From Candidatus Moraniibacteriota bacterium (lineage in GTDB: Bacteria > Patescibacteriota > Minisyncoccia > Moranbacterales > UBA2206), in NCBI GenBank assembly GCA_013334765.1, contig JAAXWW010000001.1:108589-172588 (forward strand): a DNA stretch of 64,000 bases, written 5' to 3'. Shown here in pieces: positions 2,314 through 61,623 of this stretch. Below the pieces are notes generated by a model. It saw only the letters and a list, made by a program, of their open reading frames with translations, was not told the origin of the DNA and searched no databases. Within the stretch, counting starts at the first letter, position 1. Each line of letters opens with the position of its first letter. The position numbers were made by a program, and so were the translations under genes.

Positions 2314-3324
2314 ATGGAAAATACGGTTTTTAATCTGATCAAAAAAGGGAAAATCAAAGGGTTTTCATCATCTCCAAGGATGATAGAGACGGTTATTTCC
2401 AGAGTATTCATTTTCGACGAAGACGATACGGTCCTCAAGTTCTACAAGAAGGACAATGACTGGTGGAATACCGAAATGAGGGATATATCAGAAGGGGCTC
2501 CAAGGATATCGTTCATCCGCGATGATTTTGAATTCAACAAGTTTCTCAATCCGAAGATATACATATCGCTCAAGGTTCCGATTATTTCTGATGGGATTGT
2601 CGTCTTGTCTGAGCCAAAAAAGGATGATGATGATTTGGTGATCGTCATGCGAAAAGAAGATGTGTCTTCGGTGTTTACGGATGTCCTCTGGAAGGGCGAT
2701 CTTTCAAGTGATGAATATCGCGAGATCGGAAAATCCTTCGCTAAGATAAAGCTTTCCATTCCGAGAAGCTTTATGCCTGAAGAAGTGCCCAGTTGGCATG
2801 AGCAGGCCAGGAAAAGAATCGAAGATGTGGCTGGATGGGTTGCGAGCGAGAAGGATTTTCCAGAGAAAATCGCAAAGAAGGGTATGAAAATTCTTTGGAA
2901 CAGTATCGACAGCAAGAAAGGACATTTTGATTCGATCGGAAAAAATGATCTGTTTGTCTCAATTGATTGCAACTCGGAAAACTTGATATATTCCGGGAAA
3001 GAACTTAGATTCATGGATGCCTATTCTCCAAAAGAAAATTGGCTGACTCAGACATTCGATATGGATATATTCAGGGTCGCGAGCGATATATACGCTCTTT
3101 CAGGAAAGGACGCGTATGAAAGCTATCTTTCGGGTGTCAAGGAAATCGCCGGAGAACATATGCATGATGAAGCTCACGAGTTCTACCTTTTCTATGGTGC
3201 CATGATTATGGGGCCCTATTTCTTCATGCTGAGCCATAAGGACAAGAGGTATCTTCCTATGGCGGAAAAATACCTCAAATTCATTGCTGATCAAATTAAT
3301 CAATCCAAGATAGCAGCTTCTTAA
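2314..3324 (+). CDS. Hypothetical protein, possibly protein-kinase-like fold
   Basis: 336-aa ORF 5 nt after the previous gene; 'SIDCNSEN' (D-x4-N) and 'RFMDAYS' weakly resemble a kinase catalytic loop and DFG-like motif. Speculative. Confidence 0.5.
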   Translation: MENTVFNLIKKGKIKGFSSSPRMIETVISRVFIFDEDDTVLKFYKKDNDWWNTEMRDISEGAPRISFIRDDFEFNKFLNPKIYISLKVPIISDGIVVLSEPKKDDDDLVIVMRKEDVSSVFTDVLWKGDLSSDEYREIGKSFAKIKLSIPRSFMPEEVPSWHEQARKRIEDVAGWVASEKDFPEKIAKKGMKILWNSIDSKKGHFDSIGKNDLFVSIDCNSENLIYSGKELRFMDAYSPKENWLTQTFDMDIFRVASDIYALSGKDAYESYLSGVKEIAGEHMHDEAHEFYLFYGAMIMGPYFFMLSHKDKRYLPMAEKYLKFIADQINQSKIAAS

Positions 3325-3355
3325 TTATGATAGTAAAAGTATAAGATTAAGTATT

Positions 3356-3751
3356 ATGGGACGAATACTTGGGATAGATTATGGGAAGGCTAAAGTGGGG
3401 TTGGCGATCGCGGACGCTGAGATCAGCATCGCTTTTAGCCATGGGATGCTTAGGAATGACAAGGATTTTCTGGAACGTCTGTTGAAAATAATCCAAGACG
3501 AGGATGCGGACATCATAGTCATAGGAATCCCTTCGTATGTCAATCGGGAGGAGACGGAATATGATGGGGAAAAGTTAGGAAAATATCTTGCCGATCATAC
3601 GGATGCCGCGATCGAATATCATGACGAGATGTTCTCGACGAAAATCGCCAGGGAGAATCTCAAGGAAAAAGGGATGAAGAATCTGAATGCCTTTGATGAT
3701 GCGGAGTCCGCCAAGGTTATCCTTCAGAGCTGGCTGGATAAGAAGAAATAG
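3356..3751 (+). CDS. ruvX: Holliday-junction resolvase-like YqgF/RuvX (pre-16S rRNA nuclease)
   Basis: 'ILGIDYGKAKVGLAIAD' N-terminal signature; 131 aa. Confidence 0.85.
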   Translation: MGRILGIDYGKAKVGLAIADAEISIAFSHGMLRNDKDFLERLLKIIQDEDADIIVIGIPSYVNREETEYDGEKLGKYLADHTDAAIEYHDEMFSTKIARENLKEKGMKNLNAFDDAESAKVILQSWLDKKK

Positions 3752-4115: not shown

Positions 4116-4694
4116 ATGAAGGTTTTAAGGGGTATTATTGTAGTGATCTGTGCTGTTTTTATGACAACCTTTCTTATCTGGATGTCGAGCGGCTGTTCGA
4201 AACCTGAAAAGCTCGAAGACCGGAAACAGGCATTGATGCAAATCGCCAGGGATCATCAGTTCGCCAAACAGGCTGGCGAAGCGGCCCTGACGAATGCTGG
4301 GAAATATACCAGTGCTGGCAGTTCGTCGTACTGGCTTTATGTTGCGATGGCTTGCGGGAACGACACATCCGGATATGACGGCGCGTCCATCGGCGACAAG
4401 GTTGCTCTTGGTCGGATGGCCGAGCTGGCCAAGCGGTTTGCTGATGGCGCCAAAGCTGACGAACTGTTCCGTCTTGCTCGAAGCGGACGTGCTCAAGATG
4501 CGCTTCAGCAAGCGCTCATGGTAAGCGGTGTTCCTGGTGAGCGGGATTGGCAAAAGACGGCTGATATTCTTGAGAGCCATCTGAAGAACAACCCTAATCT
4601 AACGATATCGGAAGGCAAGGCGATCGATGAAATGATCGCCAGCATCCAATCCTTTATCAAGGAGCGCAGTCGGCTTTTTGCCAAAAGTTCCTGA
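4116..4694 (+). CDS. Putative secreted lipoprotein (unknown function)
   Basis: Signal peptide with lipobox 'MSSGC'; strong RBS aaggag upstream; GC content higher than surrounding DNA. Confidence 0.55.
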   Translation: MKVLRGIIVVICAVFMTTFLIWMSSGCSKPEKLEDRKQALMQIARDHQFAKQAGEAALTNAGKYTSAGSSSYWLYVAMACGNDTSGYDGASIGDKVALGRMAELAKRFADGAKADELFRLARSGRAQDALQQALMVSGVPGERDWQKTADILESHLKNNPNLTISEGKAIDEMIASIQSFIKERSRLFAKSS

Positions 4695-12672: not shown

Positions 12673-13803
12673 ATGAAACACAAAAATATTTCAAATATAA
12701 AAACCGGTGCCAAGAAGAGGGTCCTTCGCAAAAAAATTGCGGAGCGGACAAAAAAGAAGGTCGCAAGAAAACCGGCAAAAAGGAAACATCTGGATATCGG
12801 ATCACTAACAGGAAAAAAATCACTGTTCGATCATATCAAGGGAAGCCTTGTGGCTTTTTCGAAAAAGAAAGAAGGCAAGAGTATCCCAGAAGAAGGGAGG
12901 ATAATTTCCATGAACGAACCGGTGAAGGAAATCGAAATCCCGATTGTTTTGAAAGAAGCAAGAAAGAATCCTGCAAAAAAAGCTCCTGCGAAAAAAAGGA
13001 AGAAGGCTGTTGCTGAGGAAACCGGGCTTATGAATCTTCCTAAGCCCCGCGTTGCGATCGTGAGCCTCACTTCGTGCGAAGGCTGCCAGTTCGTCCTTTT
13101 GGATCTCGGGGAAAGGTTTTTCGAGTTCGTGAAGAGCGTTGAACTGGTTGATTTCCGCATGGTCGAGGATCAGGAAGATGACAACCTGCAGCTCGATCTG
13201 GTGCTGGTGGAAGGCAATCCTGTTACTGAGGAGAATGTGGAAACTCTCAAAAGAGTGCGGGCTAGGGCCAAAGTCCTAGCGGCTCTTGGAAACTGTGCGG
13301 CGATGGGCGGAGTGCCAGAGATCAAGAACTATCAGAAAGGGAAGAGCACCATAAAGCACGTATACAAGTATATTCACGGCATAAGCAATCCTGAGATCAA
13401 GGAAATAGATAATTTCGTGAAAGTTGATTTCGTTTTCCCGGGGTGTCCGATTGACGGAGAAGAGTTCCTGAAATATATGCCAGAGCTTCTCAAGGGAAAT
13501 GTTCCGCAGATTCCGGATCAGGCGGTCTGTCTTGAGTGTAGGAAGAAAGGAAACAAATGCCTTCTTTTGGAGAAGAAGCCGTGCTTCGGTCCGATGATCC
13601 TGGGCGGATGCGATGCGGTCTGTCCTACGGCTAGGATGGGCTGTCAGGGTTGCCGCGGGCTGCGCCCGGAAGGCAGCATCAAAGTGATGCGTGCGACATT
13701 GAAAAGCATGATGACTGATGAAGAATTCGAGAATGTGACGGAAATATACGGCCTCAGGGATGATTTGGAAGAGAAAGAGAAAAAAGAGAAAAAGGAGAAG
13801 TAG
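12673..13803 (+). CDS. [NiFe]-hydrogenase small subunit (group 3-like) with a Cys-rich C-terminal extension; true start uncertain (alternatives 12910 or 13030)
   Basis: 'VAIVSLTSCEGCQ' proximal-cluster motif and 'CLECRKKGNKC...CFGP...GGCDAVCP...CQGCRG' extra Fe-S cysteines. The N-terminal ~119 aa are Lys/Ala-rich; a strong RBS gaagggagg precedes the ATG at 12910. Confidence 0.7.
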   Translation: MKHKNISNIKTGAKKRVLRKKIAERTKKKVARKPAKRKHLDIGSLTGKKSLFDHIKGSLVAFSKKKEGKSIPEEGRIISMNEPVKEIEIPIVLKEARKNPAKKAPAKKRKKAVAEETGLMNLPKPRVAIVSLTSCEGCQFVLLDLGERFFEFVKSVELVDFRMVEDQEDDNLQLDLVLVEGNPVTEENVETLKRVRARAKVLAALGNCAAMGGVPEIKNYQKGKSTIKHVYKYIHGISNPEIKEIDNFVKVDFVFPGCPIDGEEFLKYMPELLKGNVPQIPDQAVCLECRKKGNKCLLLEKKPCFGPMILGGCDAVCPTARMGCQGCRGLRPEGSIKVMRATLKSMMTDEEFENVTEIYGLRDDLEEKEKKEKKEK

Positions 13804-14266
13804 TCTCTACGAATTACGAATCTTACGAAATTACGAACAGCAGATGAAAACAAATAAAGATATCATATATGCCGATGAATCTTATGAGATTATTGGGATG
13901 ATGTATGAGGTTCATGACAAGATAGGATCTGGACACAAAGAAGTTTTCTATCAAAAAGCTGTAGCGGAAATTTTCAGGAAGAATGGCAAAAATTTCAAAG
14001 AGCAGCTAAGATTGAAGGTGAAGATGGGTGGCAAGGAAGTGGGAGAATATGTTCTGGATTTTTTGTATGAGGATATTATTGTCATAGAATTGAAGCAGGG
14101 TGAAGTTTTTTCAAAGAGCAATATAAATCAAATATATGTTTACCTGAAAGCGACCGGATTGAAACTTGGCTTGTTGATAAATTTTACAAGAAACGGAGTC
14201 AAATTCAAAAGAATCGTCAATATAGCATAAATTCGTAATTTCGTATAATTCGTATTTCGTAGAGAA
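13804..14266 (+). mobile_element. GxxExxY-gene cassette bounded by 'TACGAAT'-rich inverted repeats (copy E1)
   Basis: Left arm tctctacgaattacgaatcttacgaaattacgaac (13804-13838) and right arm attcgtaatttcgtataattcgtatttcgtagagaa (14231-14266) are reverse complements; inserted between the hydrogenase small and large subunit genes. Confidence 0.55.
13844..14230 (+). CDS. GxxExxY protein (PD-(D/E)XK nuclease superfamily)
   Basis: 'SYEIIGMMYEVHDKIGSGHKEVFYQKAV' (GxxExxY core) and 'ELKQGE' motif; start chosen at the internal Met 'MKTNKDIIY'. Confidence 0.75.
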   Translation: MKTNKDIIYADESYEIIGMMYEVHDKIGSGHKEVFYQKAVAEIFRKNGKNFKEQLRLKVKMGGKEVGEYVLDFLYEDIIVIELKQGEVFSKSNINQIYVYLKATGLKLGLLINFTRNGVKFKRIVNIA

Positions 14267-14269
14267 TTC

Positions 14270-15529
14270 ATGGAGATAAAAATAAACCACATTGCTAAGA
14301 TGGAAGGGCACACTGGCTTCATGGCGAGTGTGATTCATGGCGATGTGAAAGCTGCGAAACTGGAAGTCAAAGAGGGGATCCGTCTTATCGAGGGCGTGCT
14401 CATAGGCCGTGATTATCGGGATATGCCGGTGGTAGCGCAAAGGATCTGCGGGATCTGCCCGGTGGTGCACAACATCACTTCGATAAAAGCCATAGAGAAT
14501 GCGATGGGGGTTTCAGTCACGCCAGAGACGAAAAAGCTCAGGACGCTCATGGAATACGCCCAGATCATTCATTCTCATGCACTGCATCTTTTCTTTTTGT
14601 CCTTGGCTGATTTTTTGGATATGGATAATGACATCAAGCTCATGCAGGATTATCCTGAGGAAGCAAGGATGGCAATCAAAATACGCGAATACGGGATGTC
14701 GATTGTCAAAGTGATCGGAGGAAGGGTCGTGCATCCGCTCACTAATGAAGTCGGAGGATTCAAGAAGGCGCCGGATACTGAAGAACTCAAGAGGCTGCTT
14801 GATGAATCAGGGGAGGTGCTTAAAACGGCTCTGGAACTGGGAGAGTTTTTCAAGACGATCAAGGCCCCTGACTTTTCGCGCGAGACGGAATACGTATCTC
14901 TCGGCAAGAAAGGCGAATATGCCATATATGACGGCGATGTCATTTCTAATTTCGGGCTGCATATCCTGACGGAGAAATTCGAGAACAACTTCCTGGAGCT
15001 CCAGAAACAGAATGAGATCATAAAAAGGGTCGAGCATAGAGGAAAAAGCTATATGGTCGGAGCGATTGCCAGGTTGAACAATTCCAGGGAAAAACTCAGA
15101 CCGAAGGCGGCAAAATACCTGGAAAGTCTCGGCTGGAGCTTTCCGGACTATAATCCCTTCCACAACATCCTCGCTCAGATGACGGAACTTATCCACTTCA
15201 TTGAAGAATCTGCCAGGCTTCTTTCAGAGCTGCTCAATTGCGATCTGAATGAAGTCATAACCAAGGAATATGAAATCAAGGAAGGATCGGGTTCCGCGGC
15301 AGTGGAAGCTCCGCGCGGGACTCTCTACTACCATGTCGATATCGATCCGAAAGGATATATCAGGAACGTGAATATCATAACGCCGACGGCTCAATTCCTG
15401 TCGAACCTGGAAGATGACGTAGCGGCATATATCCCTGAAATAATAAACCTGGACCCGAAAGAAAGGGAGAAGAAGCTCCGCGCGTTCATCCGTGCCTATG
15501 ATCCGTGCATATCCTGCGCGGTTCACTAG
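14270..15529 (+). CDS. [NiFe]-hydrogenase large subunit (group 3-like), no C-terminal propeptide
   Basis: N-terminal 'RICGICPVVH' (RxCGxCxxxH) and C-terminal 'DPCISCAVH' immediately followed by the stop codon. Confidence 0.85.
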   Translation: MEIKINHIAKMEGHTGFMASVIHGDVKAAKLEVKEGIRLIEGVLIGRDYRDMPVVAQRICGICPVVHNITSIKAIENAMGVSVTPETKKLRTLMEYAQIIHSHALHLFFLSLADFLDMDNDIKLMQDYPEEARMAIKIREYGMSIVKVIGGRVVHPLTNEVGGFKKAPDTEELKRLLDESGEVLKTALELGEFFKTIKAPDFSRETEYVSLGKKGEYAIYDGDVISNFGLHILTEKFENNFLELQKQNEIIKRVEHRGKSYMVGAIARLNNSREKLRPKAAKYLESLGWSFPDYNPFHNILAQMTELIHFIEESARLLSELLNCDLNEVITKEYEIKEGSGSAAVEAPRGTLYYHVDIDPKGYIRNVNIITPTAQFLSNLEDDVAAYIPEIINLDPKEREKKLRAFIRAYDPCISCAVH

Positions 15530-15544
15530 ATAAAGTAAAAAATT

Positions 15545-15587
15545 AAAGGTAAAAAGTAAAAAATATTTTACATCTACTTTTTACCTT
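15545..15587. promoter_or_regulatory. AT-rich perfect 14-bp inverted repeat (aaaggtaaaaagta / tactttttaccttt) between the large subunit and hypA-like genes
   Basis: Read directly; could be a weak intrinsic terminator or an operator. Confidence 0.3.
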
Positions 15588-15613
15588 TTACTTCTAACTT
15601 TTAACTTTGAAAC

Positions 15614-18865: not shown

Positions 18866-18877
18866 AAAAAAGGGGAA

Positions 18878-19003
18878 TTCTCTACGAATTACGAATTTTT
18901 ACGAATATACGAATCTTTTCTAAATCAGATTCATCCAGGTGGAAAGGCAAGGATTGCCAAGGAAGTATTCGTAATTTCGTAAAAATTCGTAATTCGTAGA
19001 GAA
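18878..19003. repeat. 'Empty' copy (E2) of the TACGAAT-rich inverted-repeat element with no gene between the arms
   Basis: Arms tctctacgaattacgaatttttacgaatatacgaat (18881-18914) and attcgtaatttcgtaaaaattcgtaattcgtagagaa (18966-19002) flank only about 50 nt. Confidence 0.55.
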
Positions 19004-19028
19004 TACAGACAATTTTAAAATCAAAAAC

Positions 19029-43024: not shown

Positions 43025-43255
43025 CAAAGATAAAAGCGTTTGAGGAAGGCTATCACCTTCCGAGCTGGGGAAAGAAATGTTTGTCGTAGCATGAAGGCAA
43101 CCCGCCTTCGTCCCGCTGAGCGGGACTACGGCGGGCGAAGTAGAATCTCCCGGGTTTGCCCGTAACAGCTAGAATGAAGCCCTGATTTTTTCGGGGGAAT
43201 TAAGGTGGTACCACGCTATTGGCGTCCTTATGTTGTATTGAGGGCGTTTTTTATT
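43025..43255 (+). promoter_or_regulatory. Putative T-box leader (Ile specifier) for ileS
   Basis: 'aattaaggtggtaccacg' at 43198-43215 matches the T-box consensus AATTAGGGTGGTACCGCG at 16/18; candidate specifier 'ggctATCAcc' at 43048-43057; nested GC hairpins at 43095-43135; T-run at 43246-43252. Confidence 0.4.
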
Positions 43256-43721
43256 AGACTACGAAATACGAAAATATTACAAAAATACAAAAAATGGAGA
43301 CGGGCAAAGTTATTTATAAGGAGTTAAGTTATGAGATAGTCGGTGCTGCTTTTGAAGTTTTTAAAGAGCTTGGACCTGGCTATAAAGAGAAACATTATGA
43401 AGATGCTGTCTCAAAGGAATTTACAAAAAGAAATATAAGCTATAAAAGACAGATACAATATAAATTGCTATATAAAGGAGAATCAATAGGAATGAATCAG
43501 TTTGATTTCCTGATAGATGATAGAATAATCGTAGAGTTGAAACGCGGAGATTATTATTCTAAAAACAATATAGACCAAGTGATCCAATATTTGAAGACGT
43601 CCAAGCTGAAGCTGGCCATTCTCATAAATTTCACATCAACCGGAGTAAAATTCAAACGAATATTGAATATAAAATAGTTTGTAATTTTTGTATTTTTGTA
43701 ATAATTTTGTAATTTTGTAGG
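43256..43721 (+). mobile_element. GxxExxY-gene cassette with TACGAAA/TACAAAA-type inverted repeat arms (copy E3), between the T-box leader and ileS
   Basis: Left arm agactacgaaatacgaaaatattacaaaaatacaaaaa; right arm tttgtaatttttgtatttttgtaataattttgtaattttgtag (imperfect reverse complement). Confidence 0.5.
43294..43677 (+). CDS. GxxExxY protein (PD-(D/E)XK nuclease superfamily), paralog of the 13844 gene
   Basis: 'SYEIVGAAFEVFKELGPGYKEKHYEDAV' and a C-terminus 'KLAILINFTSTGVKFKRILNI' nearly identical to the other copy. Confidence 0.75.
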   Translation: METGKVIYKELSYEIVGAAFEVFKELGPGYKEKHYEDAVSKEFTKRNISYKRQIQYKLLYKGESIGMNQFDFLIDDRIIVELKRGDYYSKNNIDQVIQYLKTSKLKLAILINFTSTGVKFKRILNIK

Positions 43722-43724
43722 AAT

Positions 43725-46670
43725 ATGTTCAAAAAAGTAGACCCGAAACGAACGCTTCCCAAAATGGAAGAGGAAATATTGAAGTTCTGGAACGAGAACA
43801 GGATATTCGAGAAATCCATCGAGAATAGGGAATGCTCACCGCTCTATAGCTTCTATGACGGTCCGCCGTTCGCGACTGGGCTGCCTCACTACGGTCATTT
43901 GGTCGGCAGCACTATGAAAGATGTCGTACCGAGATATTGGACGATGAAAGGATATAAAGTGGAAAGGAAATGGGGATGGGATTGCCATGGCCTTCCGATC
44001 GAGAACATCGCTGAGAAAGGGCTGGGAATCAAAAGGAAGAATGAGATCGAGGAATTGGGCGTTGAAAAATTCAACGAGTTCTGCCGTTCGACGGTTCTTG
44101 AATATGTCGCGGAGTGGAAAGTCATCATCAATCGCCTGGGGCGCTGGGCGGATATGGAAAACAGCTATAAGACGATGGATAAGCCGTTCATGGAATCGGT
44201 CTGGTGGGTTTTCAAGGAACTTTGGGACAAAGGGCTCATATATGAAGGATACCGTTCCATGCATGTCTGCACCCGATGCGAGACGACTTTGTCGCAACAG
44301 GAAGTTTCTGAAGGTTACAAAGACATCAAGGATCTTTCGGCAATCGCAAAATTTGAGTTTGTTGATGAACCGGGAATATATGTTCTTGCTTGGACGACGA
44401 CACCTTGGACGCTGATTGGAAATGTCGCATTAGCTGTCGGGAAAGATATTGATTATGTGAAAATAAGATATAACAACAAAGAAGGTGATCCTGAATTATT
44501 TATTTTGGCAAAAAACATTTATGATGCCAGAAAAGAAGACTTATTTCCGTCAGTTAAGCAACTGTCCGAGGGTGAAGTTCCTCCTGTGCCGCCAGTCATA
44601 ATAGATACTATCCATGGATCGGATCTAGTTGGCAAAAAATACAAACCCCTCTTTGATTATTATCAGGACAAAGGTCTTCAGAACGAAGAGAATGGCTGGA
44701 AAATATATCCGGCTGATTTCGTGACGACCGAAGATGGAACAGGGGTGGTGCATATCGCTCCGGCTTTCGGAGAAGACGATTTGAATTTGAGTTATGAACA
44801 TAAGCTGCCGTTCATCCAGCATGTCGGCATGGACGGGCTCATCAGGAAAGAAGCCGGTGAATTTGCCGGGATGAGCGTGAAACCCCTGGATGATCACATG
44901 AAAACCGACATCGAAATCATCAGATATCTTGCCAAGAACGGGTTGCTTTTTTCCAAAGAGAAATACGAGCATAGCTATCCTCACTGCTGGAGATGCGACA
45001 CTCCTCTCATCAACTATGCGACATCATCCTGGTTCGTGGCTGTCACTAAGATCAAAGAAAAGGCCTTGGAGTTGGCCAAAGAAATAAGCTGGTCGCCGGA
45101 GCATATGAAAGAAGGGCGGTTCGGCAACTGGCTGGAAGGGGCGCGTGACTGGTCGATTTCCCGTCAGCGCTATTGGGCTTCAGTCATGCCGATCTGGAAA
45201 TGCGAATGCGGGGAAATGCGAGTGTTCGGCCGGGTGAGCGATCTGGAAGAGGCGAGCGGACAGAAAGTTGATGATCTTCATAAGCATGTCGTCGATAAGA
45301 TAACCATGCCTTGCGCGAAATGCGGAGGAATAATGAAGCGCATTCCTGACGTTCTTGATACTTGGTTTGATTCCGGATCGATGCCGTATGCCCAGGCTCA
45401 TTATCCGTTTGAAAATGAGGAGAAATTCGAAAAAAGTTTCCCGGCCCAATTCGTTGCGGAAGGCGTCGATCAGACGCGTGCCTGGTTCTATTATCTGCAT
45501 GTCATCGCAACTGGCATCAAGGAAAAAGCCGCATATAAGAATGTCATCGTGAACGGAATAGTTTTAGCGGAAGATGGAAAGAAAATGTCGAAACGTCTTA
45601 AGAATTATCCTGATCCGACTGATATGTTCGATAAGTATGGGGCGGATGCGCTCAGGTTCTATCTGATGTCTTCTCCTGTTGTTGCTGCAGAAAATCTCAA
45701 TTTCAAAGAAGCGGATGTGTCCGATCTTGTGCGCGGGATGTTCCGCATGCTCTGGAATTCATATTCATTCTTCGCGCTCTATGCCGATATCGATGGCTGG
45801 GATCCAAAGAGGAATCGGCTTGAACCTGTTCATCTCTTGGATAAATGGATGTTGTCAGAGCACAATGTCCTCGTTCGTGACGTGAATAGGCACATGGAGA
45901 ATTATGAACTGCACAGAGCTTCCAGGCTGTTCGTGAAATTCATCGACAACCTGTCCAACTGGTATATCCGCCGCTCAAGGAAGCGCTTCTGGAAGAGCGA
46001 GAATGATGATGACAAGAATCAGGCCTATGCGACGCTCTATCATGTCCTTGTCGAGCTTTCCAAACTGATGGCTCCGTTCACGCCGTTCATTGCTGAAGAG
46101 ATATACAAGAACCTGACCCAGGGGGAATCGGTGCATCTCGAAGATTTTCCGCAGGCCGACGCTTCTGCGATAGATGAGAAGCTGAATCAGGAGATGGCTA
46201 AGGTCAGGGAGGTGATCAGCGAGGGATTGCAGTTGCGCGCCAAGGCAAAGATAAAAGTCAGGCAGCCGCTTCAAGCGGTTATCGTCAAGAACGAGGTATC
46301 CAATAGCGAACTGGTAGAAATAATCAAGGACGAGCTGAACGTCAAAGATGTCGTCGTGAAAAAAGACCAGGAAGAAGAGATTGTCTTGAACACTGAAATC
46401 ACTGAGGATTTGAAACTCGAAGGTCAGGCTCGCGAGATCGTCCGCGCTGTCCAGGAGATGAGAAAAGAAGCTGACTATGTTGTCGACAACCGGATCGAAA
46501 TCGCCTATGATTCAGCTTCGCCGATATTTTCAAATCCGGAGCTCAAAGAGCTCATCAAGAAAGAAACCCTTGCCAACAAGCTGGAAGAGGGGGGCATGGA
46601 AAATCCGGATATCCGAAAAGAACTGAATATCGATGGAGAAAAGATTTCCATCTCGATAAGAAAAGCATAA
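43725..46670 (+). CDS. ileS: Isoleucyl-tRNA synthetase
   Basis: 'PFATGLPHYGHL' (HIGH), 'KMSKRLKN' (KMSKS), CP1 editing domain; 981 aa. Confidence 0.9.
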   Translation: MFKKVDPKRTLPKMEEEILKFWNENRIFEKSIENRECSPLYSFYDGPPFATGLPHYGHLVGSTMKDVVPRYWTMKGYKVERKWGWDCHGLPIENIAEKGLGIKRKNEIEELGVEKFNEFCRSTVLEYVAEWKVIINRLGRWADMENSYKTMDKPFMESVWWVFKELWDKGLIYEGYRSMHVCTRCETTLSQQEVSEGYKDIKDLSAIAKFEFVDEPGIYVLAWTTTPWTLIGNVALAVGKDIDYVKIRYNNKEGDPELFILAKNIYDARKEDLFPSVKQLSEGEVPPVPPVIIDTIHGSDLVGKKYKPLFDYYQDKGLQNEENGWKIYPADFVTTEDGTGVVHIAPAFGEDDLNLSYEHKLPFIQHVGMDGLIRKEAGEFAGMSVKPLDDHMKTDIEIIRYLAKNGLLFSKEKYEHSYPHCWRCDTPLINYATSSWFVAVTKIKEKALELAKEISWSPEHMKEGRFGNWLEGARDWSISRQRYWASVMPIWKCECGEMRVFGRVSDLEEASGQKVDDLHKHVVDKITMPCAKCGGIMKRIPDVLDTWFDSGSMPYAQAHYPFENEEKFEKSFPAQFVAEGVDQTRAWFYYLHVIATGIKEKAAYKNVIVNGIVLAEDGKKMSKRLKNYPDPTDMFDKYGADALRFYLMSSPVVAAENLNFKEADVSDLVRGMFRMLWNSYSFFALYADIDGWDPKRNRLEPVHLLDKWMLSEHNVLVRDVNRHMENYELHRASRLFVKFIDNLSNWYIRRSRKRFWKSENDDDKNQAYATLYHVLVELSKLMAPFTPFIAEEIYKNLTQGESVHLEDFPQADASAIDEKLNQEMAKVREVISEGLQLRAKAKIKVRQPLQAVIVKNEVSNSELVEIIKDELNVKDVVVKKDQEEEIVLNTEITEDLKLEGQAREIVRAVQEMRKEADYVVDNRIEIAYDSASPIFSNPELKELIKKETLANKLEEGGMENPDIRKELNIDGEKISISIRKA

Positions 46671-60157: not shown

Positions 60158-60354
60158 GTTGTTTTCATCGGGATTCGCGTATTTTAGGAAATTACTATAG
60201 CGACTTTTGTGGTGTCCGGGGAAGCCTGGCAATACATTTAATCAAGCCATAGTACTGTAATATGAATCTTGGTGAGTAATTCTTAAAAATTCCCCAGACA
60301 CCTCATTTGTTATTAAAAATATATAAACAATAAGAATGTTAAGATTTACGAATT

Positions 60355-61623
60355 ATGAAATTCAAGAAAACCAAACTGAAAAACGGGCTTAGGATAATCA
60401 CGGCTCCGATGACCGGAACGGAAACCGCGACAGTGGTTGTGATGGTGGGAGTGGGATCGCGCTATGAAACAGAAAAACAGGCGGGTCTTTCTCATTTCAT
60501 CGAGCATATGATGTTCAAGGGGACTGCGAACCGTCCGACGGCGCTCTCGATTTCTTCGGAGCTGGATGCGATTGGCGGTGAGTTCAATGCTTTCACATCC
60601 AAGGATGCGACCGGGTATTATGCCAAGGCGGATGCTAGGCATATGGATATTGCGCTGGATGTGATTTTCGATATGTTCTTGAATTCTAAATTGGATCAAG
60701 AAGAGATCGATCGCGAAAAAGGGACGATCATTCAGGAGCTCAATATGTATGAGGATAATCCGATGAGAAGCATCGGGGATGTTTTCGAGGGCATGCTGTA
60801 TGCTGGCAATAATCTCGGGCGGGATATCGGAGGATACAAGGAGACTGTGAAATCGTTCAAGCGCAGGGATTTCGTTTCATATATGAAGCGTTTCTATGTG
60901 GCTAATGACACTGTTGTTTCCGTTGCGGGTAAATTCAATGAAAAGAAAATCATACCGCAGATCAAGAAGTATTTCGAAAGCTTCTCTTCCGGGAACAAGG
61001 CGGCGATTTCCAGGGTCAAGGAGAATCAGAAAAAACCTGAAATCAAGGTCAAATTCAAGAAGACCGATCAGACTCATTTCATCGTCGGCACGCGCGCATT
61101 CGATCGGGATGATGATAGGCGCTATGCTCTTTCGCTGCTTTCCATAATCCTGGGCGGGAATATGTCGAGCCGTCTTTTCATCGAAGTACGCGAAAGGAGA
61201 GGCCTGGCATATTATGTCAGGACTACGACGGATCTTTTCGAAGATTGCGGATATATCGCGACGCAGGCGGGAGTGGAGCATGAGAATCTGGAAAAGGCGC
61301 TGAAAGTCATTTTAGAGGAATACAGGAAGATATCTGAAATGAGGGTGAGCGATGAGGAACTCAAGCGTGCTAAGGAATATGTGAAGGGCAAATCGGTGAT
61401 GGGATTGGAGGCATCGGATGAGATGGCGCTTTTCCTTGTGAACCAGGAAATAGAGAAGGGGAATATATTGGAGCAGGAGGAGATTTTCAAGAGGATTGAT
61501 AAGGTGACGGCTGATGATATAATGAAGGTGGCCAAGGAAGTGTTCCGCACCGAGATTCTCAATTTGGCAGTCATCGGTCCGCATAAGAATGAAGATAAGC
61601 TGAGGAATCTGCTGAAATTGTAG
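60355..61623 (+). CDS. M16 family zinc peptidase (pitrilysin-like)
   Basis: Inverted zinc motif 'HFIEHMMFKGT' (HxxEH). Confidence 0.8.
   Translation: MKFKKTKLKNGLRIITAPMTGTETATVVVMVGVGSRYETEKQAGLSHFIEHMMFKGTANRPTALSISSELDAIGGEFNAFTSKDATGYYAKADARHMDIALDVIFDMFLNSKLDQEEIDREKGTIIQELNMYEDNPMRSIGDVFEGMLYAGNNLGRDIGGYKETVKSFKRRDFVSYMKRFYVANDTVVSVAGKFNEKKIIPQIKKYFESFSSGNKAAISRVKENQKKPEIKVKFKKTDQTHFIVGTRAFDRDDDRRYALSLLSIILGGNMSSRLFIEVRERRGLAYYVRTTTDLFEDCGYIATQAGVEHENLEKALKVILEEYRKISEMRVSDEELKRAKEYVKGKSVMGLEASDEMALFLVNQEIEKGNILEQEEIFKRIDKVTADDIMKVAKEVFRTEILNLAVIGPHKNEDKLRNLLKL

What the first reader, a model, noticed from the sequence alone, without database searches (positions are those of the whole stretch)
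13804..14266. GxxExxY nuclease-family gene cassette with TACGAAT-rich terminal inverted repeats inserted between hydrogenase small and large subunit genes
A 387-nt gene for a GxxExxY (PD-(D/E)XK superfamily) protein is bracketed by 35-nt arms built from 'tacgaat' units that are mutual reverse complements. The whole unit occupies the gap between the small subunit stop (13803) and the large subunit start (14270).

GxxExxY genes are classically found inside 23S rRNA intervening sequences; here the same kind of gene sits in a protein operon with clean inverted-repeat boundaries. This suggests a compact selfish cassette or homing module, possibly transcribed with, and interrupting, the hydrogenase operon.
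Basis: partly seen in the sequence, partly recalled or inferred. Interest (0 to 1): 0.6.

Follow-up and report, generated by a model that had tools for sequence, protein, structure and literature searches.

The report
Hairpin-framed nuclease cassette between hydrogenase genes
A small nuclease gene enclosed by two 34-base inverted arms sits between the two hydrogenase subunit genes of a Moranbacteria (candidate phyla radiation) genome, and comparison with about 130 related loci shows it belongs to a widespread, apparently mobile family of such cassettes that settle between co-transcribed genes.

Summary
A 128-aa GxxExxY / PD-(D/E)XK gene (13844-14230) is bracketed by 34-nt inverted arms (13804-13837 and 14232-14265, 31/34 complementary). 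Each arm holds four TACGAA units. The unit fills the gap between the hydrogenase small-subunit stop and the large-subunit ATG.

The cassette is not a fixed gene. Among 44 orthologous loci the junction is empty (4-47 nt) in about 16. In others it holds this cassette type, a 30%-identical cassette with different arm units, a GIY-YIG gene with its own inverted repeat, or a metalloprotease gene. Two hosts with 93%-identical large subunits carry cassette proteins only 32% identical.

Of 86 related GxxExxY genes, 73 have the same frame: four TACNAAT heptamers per arm, with ATG and stop touching the arms. Nearly all are co-oriented with their neighbours, between coupled genes such as rpsG|fusA and pheS|pheT. 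Gene-less deletion derivatives and a cargo-swapped copy with identical arms exist. The protein is under strong purifying selection (dN/dS about 0.05), and the element is AT-rich relative to the host.

Best reading: a promoterless, selfish, mobile cassette resembling 23S rRNA intervening sequences and REPIN-RAYT systems. How it moves is not shown.

The parts
12673..13803 (+). Upstream flank: [NiFe] hydrogenase small subunit (group 3b / sulfhydrogenase delta-like). Its stop codon ends one base before the left arm.
   Evidence: ORF; PF01058 and NF040831/NF040836 matches.
13804..13837 (+). E1 left arm: TCTC + four TACGAA(T/A) units (TCTCTACGAATTACGAATCTTACGAAATTACGAA).
   Evidence: Pairs with 14232-14265 in the minimum-free-energy fold.
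13844..14230 (+). E1 cargo: 128-aa GxxExxY / PD-(D/E)XK nuclease-family gene, with no strong Shine-Dalgarno core and no promoter-like site of its own. Motifs: G30xxE33xxY36, D72, E82-x-K84, Q96xxxY100.
   Evidence: D72 and K84 invariant; E82 at least 90% conserved in A2 and replaced by D in clade B; AlphaFold model with pLDDT 92; Foldseek hits to Cas4, lambda exonuclease, Hjc and EndA; (promoter scan).
14232..14265 (+). E1 right arm: four TTCGTA units + GAGA (TTCGTAATTTCGTATAATTCGTATTTCGTAGAGA). It ends 4 nt before the large-subunit ATG.
14270..15529 (+). Downstream flank: [NiFe] hydrogenase large subunit, intact (RICGIC... and ...DPCISCAVH ends present).
18877..19004 (.). E2: gene-less hairpin of the same family, with 45-nt arms (89% complementary), 4 + 4 TACGAA units and a 38-nt loop. 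It shares its outer 18 nt with the E1 left arm. It lies between the tRNA-Ala/Ile genes (minus strand) and secE-nusG, 24 nt before the secE ATG.
   Evidence: (fold z = -10.5).
43259..43293 (+). E3 left arm (TACGAAA x2 and TACAAAA x2). It abuts the ATG of the E3 gene.
43294..43677 (+). E3 cargo: second GxxExxY gene, 127 aa, 47% identical to the E1 protein.
43678..43720 (+). E3 right arm (five TTTGTA units). It ends 4 nt before the ileS ATG at 43725.
43030..43232 (+). T-box leader upstream of E3. E3 is therefore inserted between the T-box riboswitch and the ileS coding sequence.
   Evidence: RF00230, 47.5 bits, E = 3.5e-9, below the gathering score of 93.

Best explanation
E1 is one copy of a family of compact, promoterless, selfish cassettes. 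Each consists of a small RecB/Cas4-like PD-(D/E)XK nuclease gene that exactly fills the loop of a long hairpin. The two roughly 35-nt arms of that hairpin are each built from four TACNAAT heptamers.

The cassette sits in the junction between two co-transcribed genes, in the same orientation, and is transcribed by read-through from the hydrogenase operon. In the transcript the arms pair, loop out the 394-nt interior (ORF plus its short flanks), and bring the small-subunit stop (13803) and the large-subunit start (14270) to the base of the stem, 4 nt apart. That is about the spacing seen in uninterrupted relatives, so the insertion is tolerated. By analogy with 23S rRNA intervening sequences, the stem is probably also an RNase III substrate.

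The encoded nuclease is kept by strong purifying selection. I infer that it recognises the heptamer arrays of the arms and supplies the DNA cleavage that lets the framed unit be copied into, lost from or replaced at such junctions, with host recombination and repair doing the joining. It could act in trans on gene-less or cargo-swapped copies.

Shown: anatomy, family-wide conservation of the frame, presence/absence and replacement at one site, relatives at different sites, deletion derivatives, foreign base composition, and selection on the protein.

Inferred: the RNA-level role of the stem, protein-arm recognition, and the DNA cleavage and joining steps.
For: 1. Frame. 73 of 86 related GxxExxY genes have flanking inverted repeats scoring far above shuffled controls. 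The ATG lies mostly 0-6 nt after the left arm, and the stop mostly 0-3 nt before the right arm or overlapping it. The modal count is four TACNAA units per arm (39 and 40 of 75 elements), against a background of 0.106 per 70 nt.

2. Pairing. On 30 aligned arm pairs, 85.8% of cells pair against 78.7% in shuffles. The covariation score is 0.181 against 0.079 (0 of 500 shuffles reach it), and slid registers give 31-42%. The outermost pairs, outside the heptamers, covary (CG 15 / UA 11).

3. Motif beyond pairing. TAC and AA(T) are invariant on both arms, whereas the fourth base is mismatched in 23-47% of cases depending on the unit. Unit sequence changes with protein clade: TACNAAT, CACGAAT/AACGAAT, ATCCGAAT, and CRCRGAGGA in Bacteroides.

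4. Turnover. Empty, clade-A, clade-B, GIY-YIG and metalloprotease states are interleaved on the large-subunit tree. L030 and L028 have 93%-identical large subunits but cassette proteins only 32% identical. L027, sister to L030, keeps only a four-unit right arm.

5. Site switching. Cassettes about 70% or more identical in protein occupy different junctions. The rpsG|fusA junction is occupied by at least five clades.

6. Derivatives. Twelve gene-less hairpins in the fetched loci, plus E2, have the same placement. One retains the first ~17 and last ~4 codons of the ORF and has a left arm identical to that of a neighbouring full copy. In L075 two elements with identical arms carry unrelated ORFs.

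7. Placement. The downstream neighbour is co-oriented in 71 of 73 cases and the upstream neighbour in 68 of 75. The distance from the upstream stop to the stem is 0-5 nt in 37 of 42 cases, and from the stem to the downstream ATG 0-10 nt in 34 of 43. There is no terminator and no + strand promoter-like site inside E1.

8. Composition. E1, E2 and E3 have 33.5, 32.8 and 29.5% GC; the host genes have 47-48%.

9. Protein. dN/dS is 0.05-0.06 in four pairs where dS is measurable and not small. D72, K84, Q96 and Y100 are invariant, and position 82 is always D or E. The model is confident and has a PD-(D/E)XK fold.

10. Precedent. The Coxiella 23S intervening sequence is an inverted-repeat stem around a small ORF, with three or four tandem heptamers just upstream of the ATG, and is excised by RNase III (PMC4990558).
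Against: No mobility step was observed. No target-site duplication exceeds chance. The only two contigs carrying the identical large-subunit protein, both of this organism, also carry the cassette, so no same-species empty allele was found.

Synonymous sites between E1 and its nearest relatives are saturated (pS about 0.8), so E1 itself is an old resident or came from an unsampled donor.

The arms show no RNA-type wobble bias (GT/TG 20 against AC/CA 18), so an RNA-level role of the stem is not specifically supported over a DNA-level one.

In compact genomes with 4-45 nt spacers, any tolerated insertion must abut the stop and start codons. The juxtaposition alone therefore does not prove design.

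A 128-aa PD-(D/E)XK nuclease has no known strand-joining activity.

dN/dS of 0.05 is also what a host-beneficial gene would show.

The 80 metagenome loci were selected by similarity to E1, so the statistics describe this clade. Of four more distant plasmid-borne members, only the Bacteroides one had a clear unit-built inverted repeat.

Neighbour genes were called from long ORFs only, and the trees are neighbour-joining without support values.
Confidence: 0.6

Rival explanations
1. Free-standing homing endonuclease gene. The nuclease cuts the uninterrupted small|large junction in genomes that lack it, and the gene is copied in by recombinational repair (intronless homing, as for phage T4 seg and mob genes). 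The inverted repeat serves only to insulate the insert at the RNA level.
For: A nuclease gene lies between two conserved genes with presence/absence polymorphism. A GIY-YIG gene, a recognised homing-endonuclease family, occupies the same junction in L011, also inside an inverted repeat. Most of E1's closest relatives are at the hydrogenase junction. Several filled loci (all five clade-B loci, plus L030 and L033 of clade A) share the large-subunit start MNIRI/MQIRI, whose codons contain an arm unit (ATTCGTA or ATTAGGAT), whereas empty relatives have K at that position. This could be a co-conversion tract. Clade-A protein identity (77-80% among W, L030, L053, L048 and L051) exceeds large-subunit identity (66-74%) between the same hosts.
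Against: Cassettes about 70% or more identical sit at unrelated junctions, with L055 (hydrogenase) next to L058/L060 (rpsG|fusA) and L051 next to L047. A homing enzyme's conserved partner is its target site, yet here the conserved and clade-covarying partner is the element's own arms. Gene-less and cargo-swapped copies keep perfect arms. E1 itself has MEIKI at the large-subunit start, so no co-conversion mark is present.
Confidence: 0.15
2. Host-serving operon module. The hairpins are intercistronic RNA processing or stability sites, comparable to REP sequences or RNase III sites, and the GxxExxY protein is the dedicated endonuclease that tunes the relative expression of the flanking genes. 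The cassette is retained because it benefits the cell.
For: Purifying selection is very strong (dN/dS 0.05-0.06). Orientation bias is strict and placement is between subunit pairs of tightly coupled operons. Arms are kept intact in gene-less copies. The fold resembles, among others, archaeal RNA-splicing endonucleases. At the variable fourth base, G.A mismatches on the sense strand outnumber the mirror T.C type 19 to 4.
Against: Close relatives do without it: the junction is empty in about 16 of 44 orthologous loci, and cassette types are swapped between 93%-identical hosts. The element has foreign base composition. There is no G-U over A-C bias in the stem. The motif set E...D...ExK...QxxxY and the best fold hits (Cas4, lambda exonuclease) point to DNA nucleases (the family assignment rests on my own knowledge).
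Confidence: 0.12
3. Ancient resident gene, vertically inherited and repeatedly lost, with no present mobility. The inverted repeat is just a conserved transcript structure.
For: Synonymous divergence between E1 and its relatives is saturated. There are no target-site duplications. No same-species empty allele was found.
Against: This requires many independent losses and cannot explain several findings: two unrelated cassette clades and a GIY-YIG gene at one junction; near relatives at different junctions; identical arms around unrelated ORFs on one contig; and element GC 13-18 points below that of the host genes.
Confidence: 0.06

Closest known systems
Intervening sequences of bacterial 23S rRNA genes (Coxiella, Leptospira, Salmonella)
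   Same: Both are about 0.4-0.5 kb units with terminal inverted repeats that form a long stem and a small ORF in the loop. Both have three or four tandem heptamers directly upstream of the ORF start (GACAGAT in Coxiella; TACGAAT here, and TACAGAT in L115). Both are sporadically distributed in a way that suggests horizontal spread, are AT-rich relative to the host, and are embedded in and transcribed with a host transcript. Their mobility mechanism is unknown (PMC4990558).
   Different: The host context is an intercistronic junction of mRNA operons or a 5' leader, not an rRNA helix, and no rRNA was found in 20 related loci. The ORF belongs to PF13366 (a nuclease fold), not S23p/PF05635 (a four-helix bundle). 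The ORF is under strong purifying selection, whereas the Coxiella ORF is decaying. RNase III excision is untested here.
REPIN-RAYT systems (REP doublets and their REP-associated tyrosine transposase)
   Same: Both have roughly 100-nt hairpin-forming doublets of a short repeat in extragenic and intercistronic positions. In both, the associated enzyme gene is itself flanked by the repeats in inverted orientation, and gene-less hairpins are plausibly served in trans (PMC3337134, PMC3116915).
   Different: The enzyme is a PD-(D/E)XK nuclease, not an HUH Y1 transposase. The gene is multi-copy (two in 64 kb) rather than single-copy. The number of gene-less copies per genome is unknown and appears modest. 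The arms are arrays of four heptamers, not a single imperfect palindrome.
Free-standing homing endonuclease genes (phage T4 seg/mob; intronless homing)
   Same: Both are small nuclease genes inserted between conserved genes without disrupting them, variable among relatives, and a possible source of flanking co-conversion (PMC2790892, PMC2988022, titles and abstracts only; otherwise my own knowledge).
   Different: Those genes have no conserved terminal inverted repeats and are tied to one target site. Here the arms are conserved and the sites vary.
Inverted-repeat DNA transposons and their miniature derivatives (MITEs)
   Same: Both have terminal inverted repeats with multiple internal binding-site-like units, internal-deletion derivatives that keep the ends, several copies per genome, and clustering in neighbouring junctions.
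   Different: There is no target-site duplication and no DDE, HUH, serine or tyrosine recombinase. Orientation and placement are strict relative to host genes.
Cas4 / RecB-family nucleases
   Same: The fold and the motif set E, D, ExK, QxxxY are shared. The best Foldseek hits are Cas4 SSO0001 and lambda exonuclease, and there is a weak PADLOC Cas4 hit.
   Different: The GxxExxY protein is half the size, has no Fe-S cluster cysteines, no CRISPR or recombination-gene neighbourhood, and low sequence identity to these nucleases (12-19%).

Membership tests
GxxExxY protein family (TIGR04256 / Pfam PF13366 PDDEXK_3) | Profile score above the curated cut-off over the whole profile length | tested here: met
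   TIGR04256: 102 bits (cut-off 35), profile positions 2-116 of 116. PF13366: 98.2 bits (cut-off 22).
GxxExxY protein family (TIGR04256 / Pfam PF13366 PDDEXK_3) | GxxExxY motif near the N-terminus | tested here: met
   G30-H-K-E33-V-F-Y36 in E1. E33 and Y36 are invariant in A2. Clade-B relatives lack the E.
PD-(D/E)XK nuclease superfamily | alpha-beta-beta-beta-alpha-beta core with D...(D/E)xK on strands 2 and 3 | tested here: met
   The model (pLDDT 92) has H10-27, H33-46, E51-61, E64-75, E79-85, H91-104, E108-114 and E119-125. D72 and K84 are invariant and position 82 is D or E. Foldseek hits are to Cas4, lambda exonuclease, Hjc and EndA.
PD-(D/E)XK nuclease superfamily | Metal-dependent phosphodiester cleavage | not testable with these tools
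   Requires a biochemical assay.
23S rRNA intervening sequence | Inserted in a helix of an rRNA gene | tested here: not met
   E1 lies between protein-coding genes. The window holds no rRNA, and neither do 20 related loci.
23S rRNA intervening sequence | Terminal inverted repeats forming a stem that encloses a small ORF | tested here: met
23S rRNA intervening sequence | ORF of the S23p / PF05635 family | tested here: not met
   The only Pfam match is PF13366.
23S rRNA intervening sequence | Excision of the stem-loop by RNase III | not testable with these tools
   Requires transcript end-mapping.
Free-standing homing endonuclease gene | Presence/absence at the same intergenic site among relatives | tested here: met
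Free-standing homing endonuclease gene | Each lineage is tied to one cognate target site | tested here: not met
   Cassettes about 70% or more identical sit at hydrogenase, rpsG|fusA and other junctions.
Free-standing homing endonuclease gene | Cleaves the empty allele | not testable with these tools
   Requires a biochemical assay.
Inverted-repeat transposon / MITE | Terminal inverted repeats and internally deleted derivatives | tested here: met
Inverted-repeat transposon / MITE | Target-site duplication | tested here: not met
   Among 51 elements, the distribution of flanking direct repeats equals that of shuffled pairs.
Inverted-repeat transposon / MITE | Transposase of a known class | tested here: not met
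   The only ORF is a 128-aa PD-(D/E)XK protein.
REPIN-RAYT | Enzyme gene flanked by inverted copies of the repeat, plus gene-less hairpin doublets | tested here: met
REPIN-RAYT | The enzyme is an HUH Y1 transposase, single-copy per genome | tested here: not met
   PF13366 rather than Y1. Two gene copies lie within 64 kb.

The most novel reading that the evidence does not exclude
These cassettes are a previously undescribed class of bacterial mobile element. The unit is a hairpin 'frame' whose arms are arrays of four heptamers, recognised by a minimal RecB/Cas4-like nuclease carried in the loop. It can move itself, its gene-less derivatives and foreign cargo between intercistronic junctions without target duplications. 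The classical 23S rRNA intervening sequences, which also combine heptamer repeats, an inverted-repeat stem and a small ORF, would be the rRNA-resident branch of the same design.
Probability: 0.3. Interest if true: 0.85.

Novelty: new variant of a known kind. Interest (0 to 1): 0.62.

Why it matters
The GxxExxY family is large: 4,794 clusters at 50% identity are detectable from this one sequence. Yet it is annotated only by a motif name, and full-text search found three papers that mention it, none about its biology.

This work gives the family a reproducible genomic anatomy: a heptamer-built hairpin frame placed exactly between coupled genes. It also gives evidence of gain, loss, replacement, site change, decay to gene-less hairpins and cargo exchange. 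Together these turn a 'hypothetical small nuclease' into a testable element.

Three consequences follow:
- It offers a concrete model for the long-unexplained origin and mobility of rRNA intervening sequences, whose 'functionality and origin remain unclear' (PMC4990558).
- It shows that essential operons of streamlined candidate-phyla-radiation genomes (ribosomal protein/EF-G, PheRS, IleRS leader, hydrogenase) tolerate such inserts, which bears on operon expression and on gene calling in these genomes.
- A sequence-specific minimal nuclease with a defined 7-nt repeated site could be a useful reagent.

Tried and rejected
- **Target-site duplications.** None beyond chance in 51 elements, so classical cut-and-paste with staggered cuts is not supported.
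- **rRNA context.** Absent from the window and from 20 related loci. The rRNA-insert survey of CPR bacteria lists LAGLIDADG, GIY-YIG and PF05635, and no PDDEXK entry.
- **RNA-specific wobble bias in the stem.** Not seen: 20 GT/TG against 18 AC/CA. The RNA and DNA levels could therefore not be separated this way.
- **Shine-Dalgarno analysis.** Uninformative, because this organism rarely shows strong cores (6 of 51 long ORFs).
- **Own promoter or terminator.** No + strand promoter-like site inside the cassette and no terminator-like site in 13500-14500. A TATAAT at 14244-14249 in the right arm is not conserved across elements.
- **Defence-system and phage libraries.** Only a weak Cas4 hit (E = 0.006) in PADLOC and nothing in PHROGs.
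- **Solved structures by sequence.** No true relative.
- **Same-species empty allele.** Both contigs with the identical large subunit come from this organism and both carry the cassette.
- **RNAalifold on the arm alignment.** It chose a register shifted by one unit, so I specified the nested register and tested it with controls.
- **First coordinate guesses.** My initial coordinates for the two ORFs were off by one and were corrected.
- **Chance as an explanation.** Rejected by the shuffles.
Full report
**1. What is in the window**

The region reads, on the + strand, as follows.
- The hydrogenase small-subunit ORF ends at 13803.
- The left arm is TCTCTACGAATTACGAATCTTACGAAATTACGAA (13804-13837).
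- Six bases follow, then a 387-nt ORF (13844-14230).
- One base follows, then the right arm TTCGTAATTTCGTATAATTCGTATTTCGTAGAGA (14232-14265).
- Then come ATTC and the large-subunit ATG at 14270.

The arms are 34 nt long and 91% complementary. Each holds four TACGAA/TTCGTA hexamers.

The ORF product (128 aa) matches PF13366 PDDEXK_3 (98 bits; cut-off 22) and TIGR04256 GxxExxY (102 bits; cut-off 35). The flanking genes are group-3b-type [NiFe] hydrogenase small and large subunits.

Folded as RNA, the arms close the whole unit and leave the large-subunit AUG unpaired. No + strand promoter-like site lies inside the cassette, and no terminator-like site was found in 13500-14500.

**2. Source**

The protein is identical to NTU66425.1, a GxxExxY protein of a Candidatus Moranbacteria genome assembled from a metagenome (candidate phyla radiation / Patescibacteria).

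**3. Other copies in the window**

- **E2 (18877-19004)** is a gene-less hairpin with 45-nt arms, 4 + 4 units and a 38-nt loop. It lies upstream of secE-nusG.
- **E3 (43259-43720)** is a second full cassette. Its protein is 47% identical to E1 and its units are TACGAAA/TACAAAA. It lies between a T-box leader (43030-43232, E = 3.5e-9) and the ileS ATG.

**4. Empty-site test at the hydrogenase junction**

A scan of one genome per species returned 44 orthologous loci. The distance from small-subunit stop to large-subunit ATG, and the content of that gap, fall into these states:

| State of the junction | Loci |
|---|---|
| Empty, 4-47 nt | about 16 |
| Clade-A cassette (78% identical to E1, same TCTC-TACGAAT arms) | L030, L033 |
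| Clade-B GxxExxY cassette (30-38% identical to E1; ATCCGAAT/ATCCTAAT units) | L019, L024, L025, L026, L028 |
| 84-aa GIY-YIG gene inside a perfect 14-nt inverted repeat | L011 |
| About 310-aa M10-like metalloprotease gene | 14 loci, including E1's closest hosts |
| Remnants: solo four-unit arm, or gene-less inverted repeat | L027, L036 |

On a neighbour-joining tree of the large subunit these states are interleaved.

The sharpest case is L030 against L028. Their large subunits are 93% identical, but their cassette proteins are 32% identical. L027, sister to L030, retains only the right arm.

**5. The frame is a family trait**

A metagenome scan gave 80 more loci.
- Of 86 GxxExxY genes with enough flank, 73 have a flanking inverted repeat far above shuffled controls. 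The ATG is mostly 0-6 nt from the left arm, and the stop mostly 0-3 nt from the right arm or overlapping it.
- After removing duplicates (75 elements), the modal count is four TACNAA units per arm, against a background of 0.106 per 70 nt. Spacings are 7, 10-11 and 8 nt.
- On 30 aligned arm pairs the nested pairing is supported. 85.8% of cells pair against 78.7% in shuffles, the covariation score is 0.181 against 0.079 (0 of 500 shuffles reach it), and slid registers give 31-42%.
- The outermost pairs and the spacer between units 3 and 4 covary. The central spacer is mostly unpaired. TAC and AA(T) are invariant on both arms. The fourth base is mismatched in 23-47% of cases depending on the unit.

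Both complementarity and the heptamer sequence itself are therefore constrained.

The unit sequence tracks the protein clade:
- TACNAAT in the broad E1 clade;
- CACGAAT/AACGAAT in a 40%-identical clade;
- ATCCGAAT in clade B;
- three CRCRGAGGA 9-mers in a Bacteroides finegoldii plasmid copy between radA and the next gene.

I read this co-variation as a sign that the encoded protein recognises the arms. This is an inference.

**6. Placement**

The downstream neighbour is on the same strand in 71 of 73 cases and the upstream neighbour in 68 of 75. The stem starts 0-5 nt after the upstream stop in 37 of 42 cases. It ends 0-10 nt before the downstream ATG in 34 of 43.

Identified junctions are rpsG|fusA (many loci), pheS|pheT, ABC ATPase|FtsX-type permease, pilC|pilin and glyA|nucleotidyl transferase. 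In the window the junctions are T-box|ileS and the secE leader.

Because native spacers are only 4-45 nt, abutting the stop and start codons is partly unavoidable. The near-absolute co-orientation is not. It points to dependence on read-through transcription.

**7. Signs of movement and decay**

- In the protein tree, cassettes about 70% or more identical sit at different junctions. The rpsG|fusA junction holds at least five clades.
- Twelve gene-less hairpins of the same units occur in the fetched loci, plus E2, with the same placement, for example rpsL|rpsG next to a full copy at rpsG|fusA.
- L077 has three consecutive occupied junctions. One element retains the first ~17 and last ~4 codons of the ORF. 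Its left arm is identical over 33 nt to that of the neighbouring full copy, although the ORF remnant is only about 80% identical.
- In L075 two elements about 1 kb apart have identical arms (34/34 and 35/35). One carries GxxExxY and the other an unrelated 106-aa ORF.
- The E1, E2 and E3 elements have 33.5, 32.8 and 29.5% GC, against 47-48% for the flanking genes.
- No target-site duplication exceeds chance.
- No same-species empty allele was available.

**8. The protein**

D72, K84, Q96, Y100 and R123 are invariant. Position 82 is D or E. E33 and Y36 of the name motif are invariant outside clade B.

The AlphaFold model is confident (pLDDT 92) and has the alpha-alpha-beta-beta-beta-alpha-beta-beta order of the PD-(D/E)XK core. 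Foldseek's best matches are Cas4 SSO0001 and lambda exonuclease. The lowest rmsd values (2.7-2.9 Å) are to the Holliday-junction resolvase Hjc, and archaeal splicing endonucleases also appear.

The series E...D...ExK...QxxxY is the RecB/Cas4-type motif set. This assignment rests on my own knowledge of that family. It favours DNA as the substrate.

dN/dS is 0.05-0.06 in four pairs where dS is measurable and not small. The protein is therefore functional, unlike the decaying ORF of the Coxiella intervening sequence (PMC4990558).

There is no match in the defence or phage libraries beyond a weak Cas4 hit. No solved structure was found by sequence. The family comprises 4,794 clusters at 50% identity at E <= 1e-3.

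**9. Mechanism**

Best-supported account (confidence 0.6): a promoterless selfish cassette.
- Its hairpin frame makes insertion between coupled genes tolerable, because the stem loops out the insert and restores stop-start proximity. It is probably also a processing site, as in rRNA intervening sequences.
- Its nuclease recognises the heptamer arrays and provides the cleavage that allows copying, loss and replacement of framed units, including gene-less and cargo-swapped ones. The joining step is left to host functions.

Not shown: any cleavage, binding, excision or insertion event; whether the stem acts as RNA, single-stranded DNA or both. The wobble test was neutral. A G.A over T.C bias of 19 to 4 at the fourth base hints at sense-strand relevance.

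Rivals are site-specific homing (0.15), a host-serving RNA-processing module (0.12) and an immobile ancient gene (0.06). Arguments for and against each are given in the rival entries.

**10. Relation to known systems**

- **23S rRNA intervening sequences** are closest in design: an inverted-repeat stem, a small ORF, tandem heptamers before the ATG, and RNase III excision in Coxiella. E1 is not a member, because it is not in rRNA and its ORF belongs to a different family.
- **REPIN-RAYT** is similar in logic: the enzyme gene is flanked by inverted repeats and there are gene-less hairpin doublets (PMC3337134, PMC3116915). The enzyme class and copy numbers differ.
- **Free-standing homing endonuclease genes** share the intergenic lifestyle but not the conserved ends.
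- **Inverted-repeat transposons** share ends and deletion derivatives, but not target duplications or a transposase.

I found no paper describing this architecture. The search covers open-access text only, so prior description elsewhere cannot be excluded.

**11. Verdict**

The feature is real and correctly observed. It is a member of a known protein family embedded in an element architecture that appears to be an undescribed variant of known selfish-element designs. It is not an artefact and not a fixed housekeeping gene.

- Interest: 0.62.
- Most novel reading not excluded: a new class of heptamer-hairpin mobile element that also explains rRNA intervening sequences. Probability about 0.3.

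**Caveats**
- The trees are neighbour-joining without support values.
- Neighbouring genes were inferred from long ORFs.
- The metagenome loci were chosen by similarity to E1.
- Some loci are near-duplicates. Duplicates were removed where stated.

Noticed in passing
window 18877-19004: E2 is a gene-less hairpin of the same TACGAAT units, with 45-nt arms and a 38-nt loop. It lies between the tRNA-Ala/Ile genes (minus strand) and secE-nusG. Its outer 18 nt are identical to the E1 left arm. The loop shows no recognisable ORF remnant.
   Followed up: yes
window 43030-43725: The E3 cassette is inserted between a T-box leader (with its terminator) and the ileS start codon. Expression of its nuclease would therefore be under T-box (Ile-tRNA charging) control.
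   Followed up: partly
window 15537-15590: A 14-bp hairpin built of AAAGTAA/TTACTTT-like units lies between the large-subunit stop and hypA. Similar ACTTTAT-type units fill the 'empty' small|large gaps of L032 and L036. This may be the remnant of another unit type.
   Followed up: partly
L075:487-953 and L075:1537-1948: Two elements on one contig have identical arms (34/34 and 35/35). One carries GxxExxY. The other carries an unrelated 106-aa Lys/Glu-rich ORF with no Pfam match. This amounts to cargo exchange within the same frame.
   Followed up: partly
L077:1576-1716, 3001-3387, 4249-4327: Three consecutive intercistronic junctions are occupied. The first element is an internal-deletion derivative that keeps about 17 N-terminal and 4 C-terminal codons. 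Its arm is better conserved than its ORF remnant.
   Followed up: yes
L011:3700-4000: An 84-aa GIY-YIG gene bracketed by a perfect 14-nt inverted repeat (CCCCCACACCAATT) occupies the same small|large hydrogenase junction. A different nuclease family uses the same 'inverted repeat around ORF' design.
   Followed up: partly
L002, L003, L005-L008, L010, L012, L016, L022, L038, L040, L042, L044 (gap between small and large subunit): The closest relatives of the window's hydrogenase carry a gene of about 310 aa for an M10/matrixin-like metalloprotease (HExxGHxxGxxH) between the two subunit genes. The window genome has the GxxExxY cassette there instead.
   Followed up: partly
window 12673-13041: The small subunit has a Lys-rich N-terminal extension of about 123 aa. 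It does not align with most orthologues, whose matches start near residue 124.
   Followed up: no
L019, L024, L025, L026, L028, L030, L033, L036 (first codons of the large subunit): These filled loci begin the large subunit with MNIRI/MQIRI, whose codons contain an arm unit (ATTCGTA or ATTAGGAT). Empty relatives and the window have K at that position (AAA; the window reads MEIKI). In clade B the inverted repeat also runs into the C-terminal codons of the small subunit. This is either arm extension into coding sequence or a co-conversion tract.
   Followed up: partly
L092:1-870: A tandem array of a 95-nt unit (right arm plus the first ~25 nt of the ORF plus ~35 nt) lies on both sides of a GxxExxY gene, which is thus flanked by direct instead of inverted arms. 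This may be a rearrangement or an assembly artefact.
   Followed up: no
L128:1400-1960 (Fusobacteria bacterium ZRK30 plasmid): A GxxExxY gene is flanked by a 22-nt direct repeat (CAGATTTAATCCGTGTACCTAT) rather than an inverted repeat.
   Followed up: no
L115:270-800: The arms of this cassette use TACAGAT units, close to the GACAGAT heptamer reported upstream of the S23p ORF in the Coxiella 23S intervening sequence.
   Followed up: no
window 14244-14249: The E1 right arm contains a perfect TATAAT 20 nt before the large-subunit ATG, which could be an outward-facing -10 box. No -35 match was found, and the hexamer is not conserved across elements.
   Followed up: partly
window 60340-60359; gaps of L015, L021, L031: A single TACGAAT unit lies directly before an ATG at 60347-60357. 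Single TACNAA units occur in three of about ten naive 13-17-nt hydrogenase spacers. These could be target sites or footprints, but the statistics are weak.
   Followed up: no
one search hit list (e.g. P0173, P0193, P0197, P0233): Some representatives carrying a GxxExxY domain are 600-870 aa long. They may be fusions, or gene calls that read through from a neighbouring gene.
   Followed up: no
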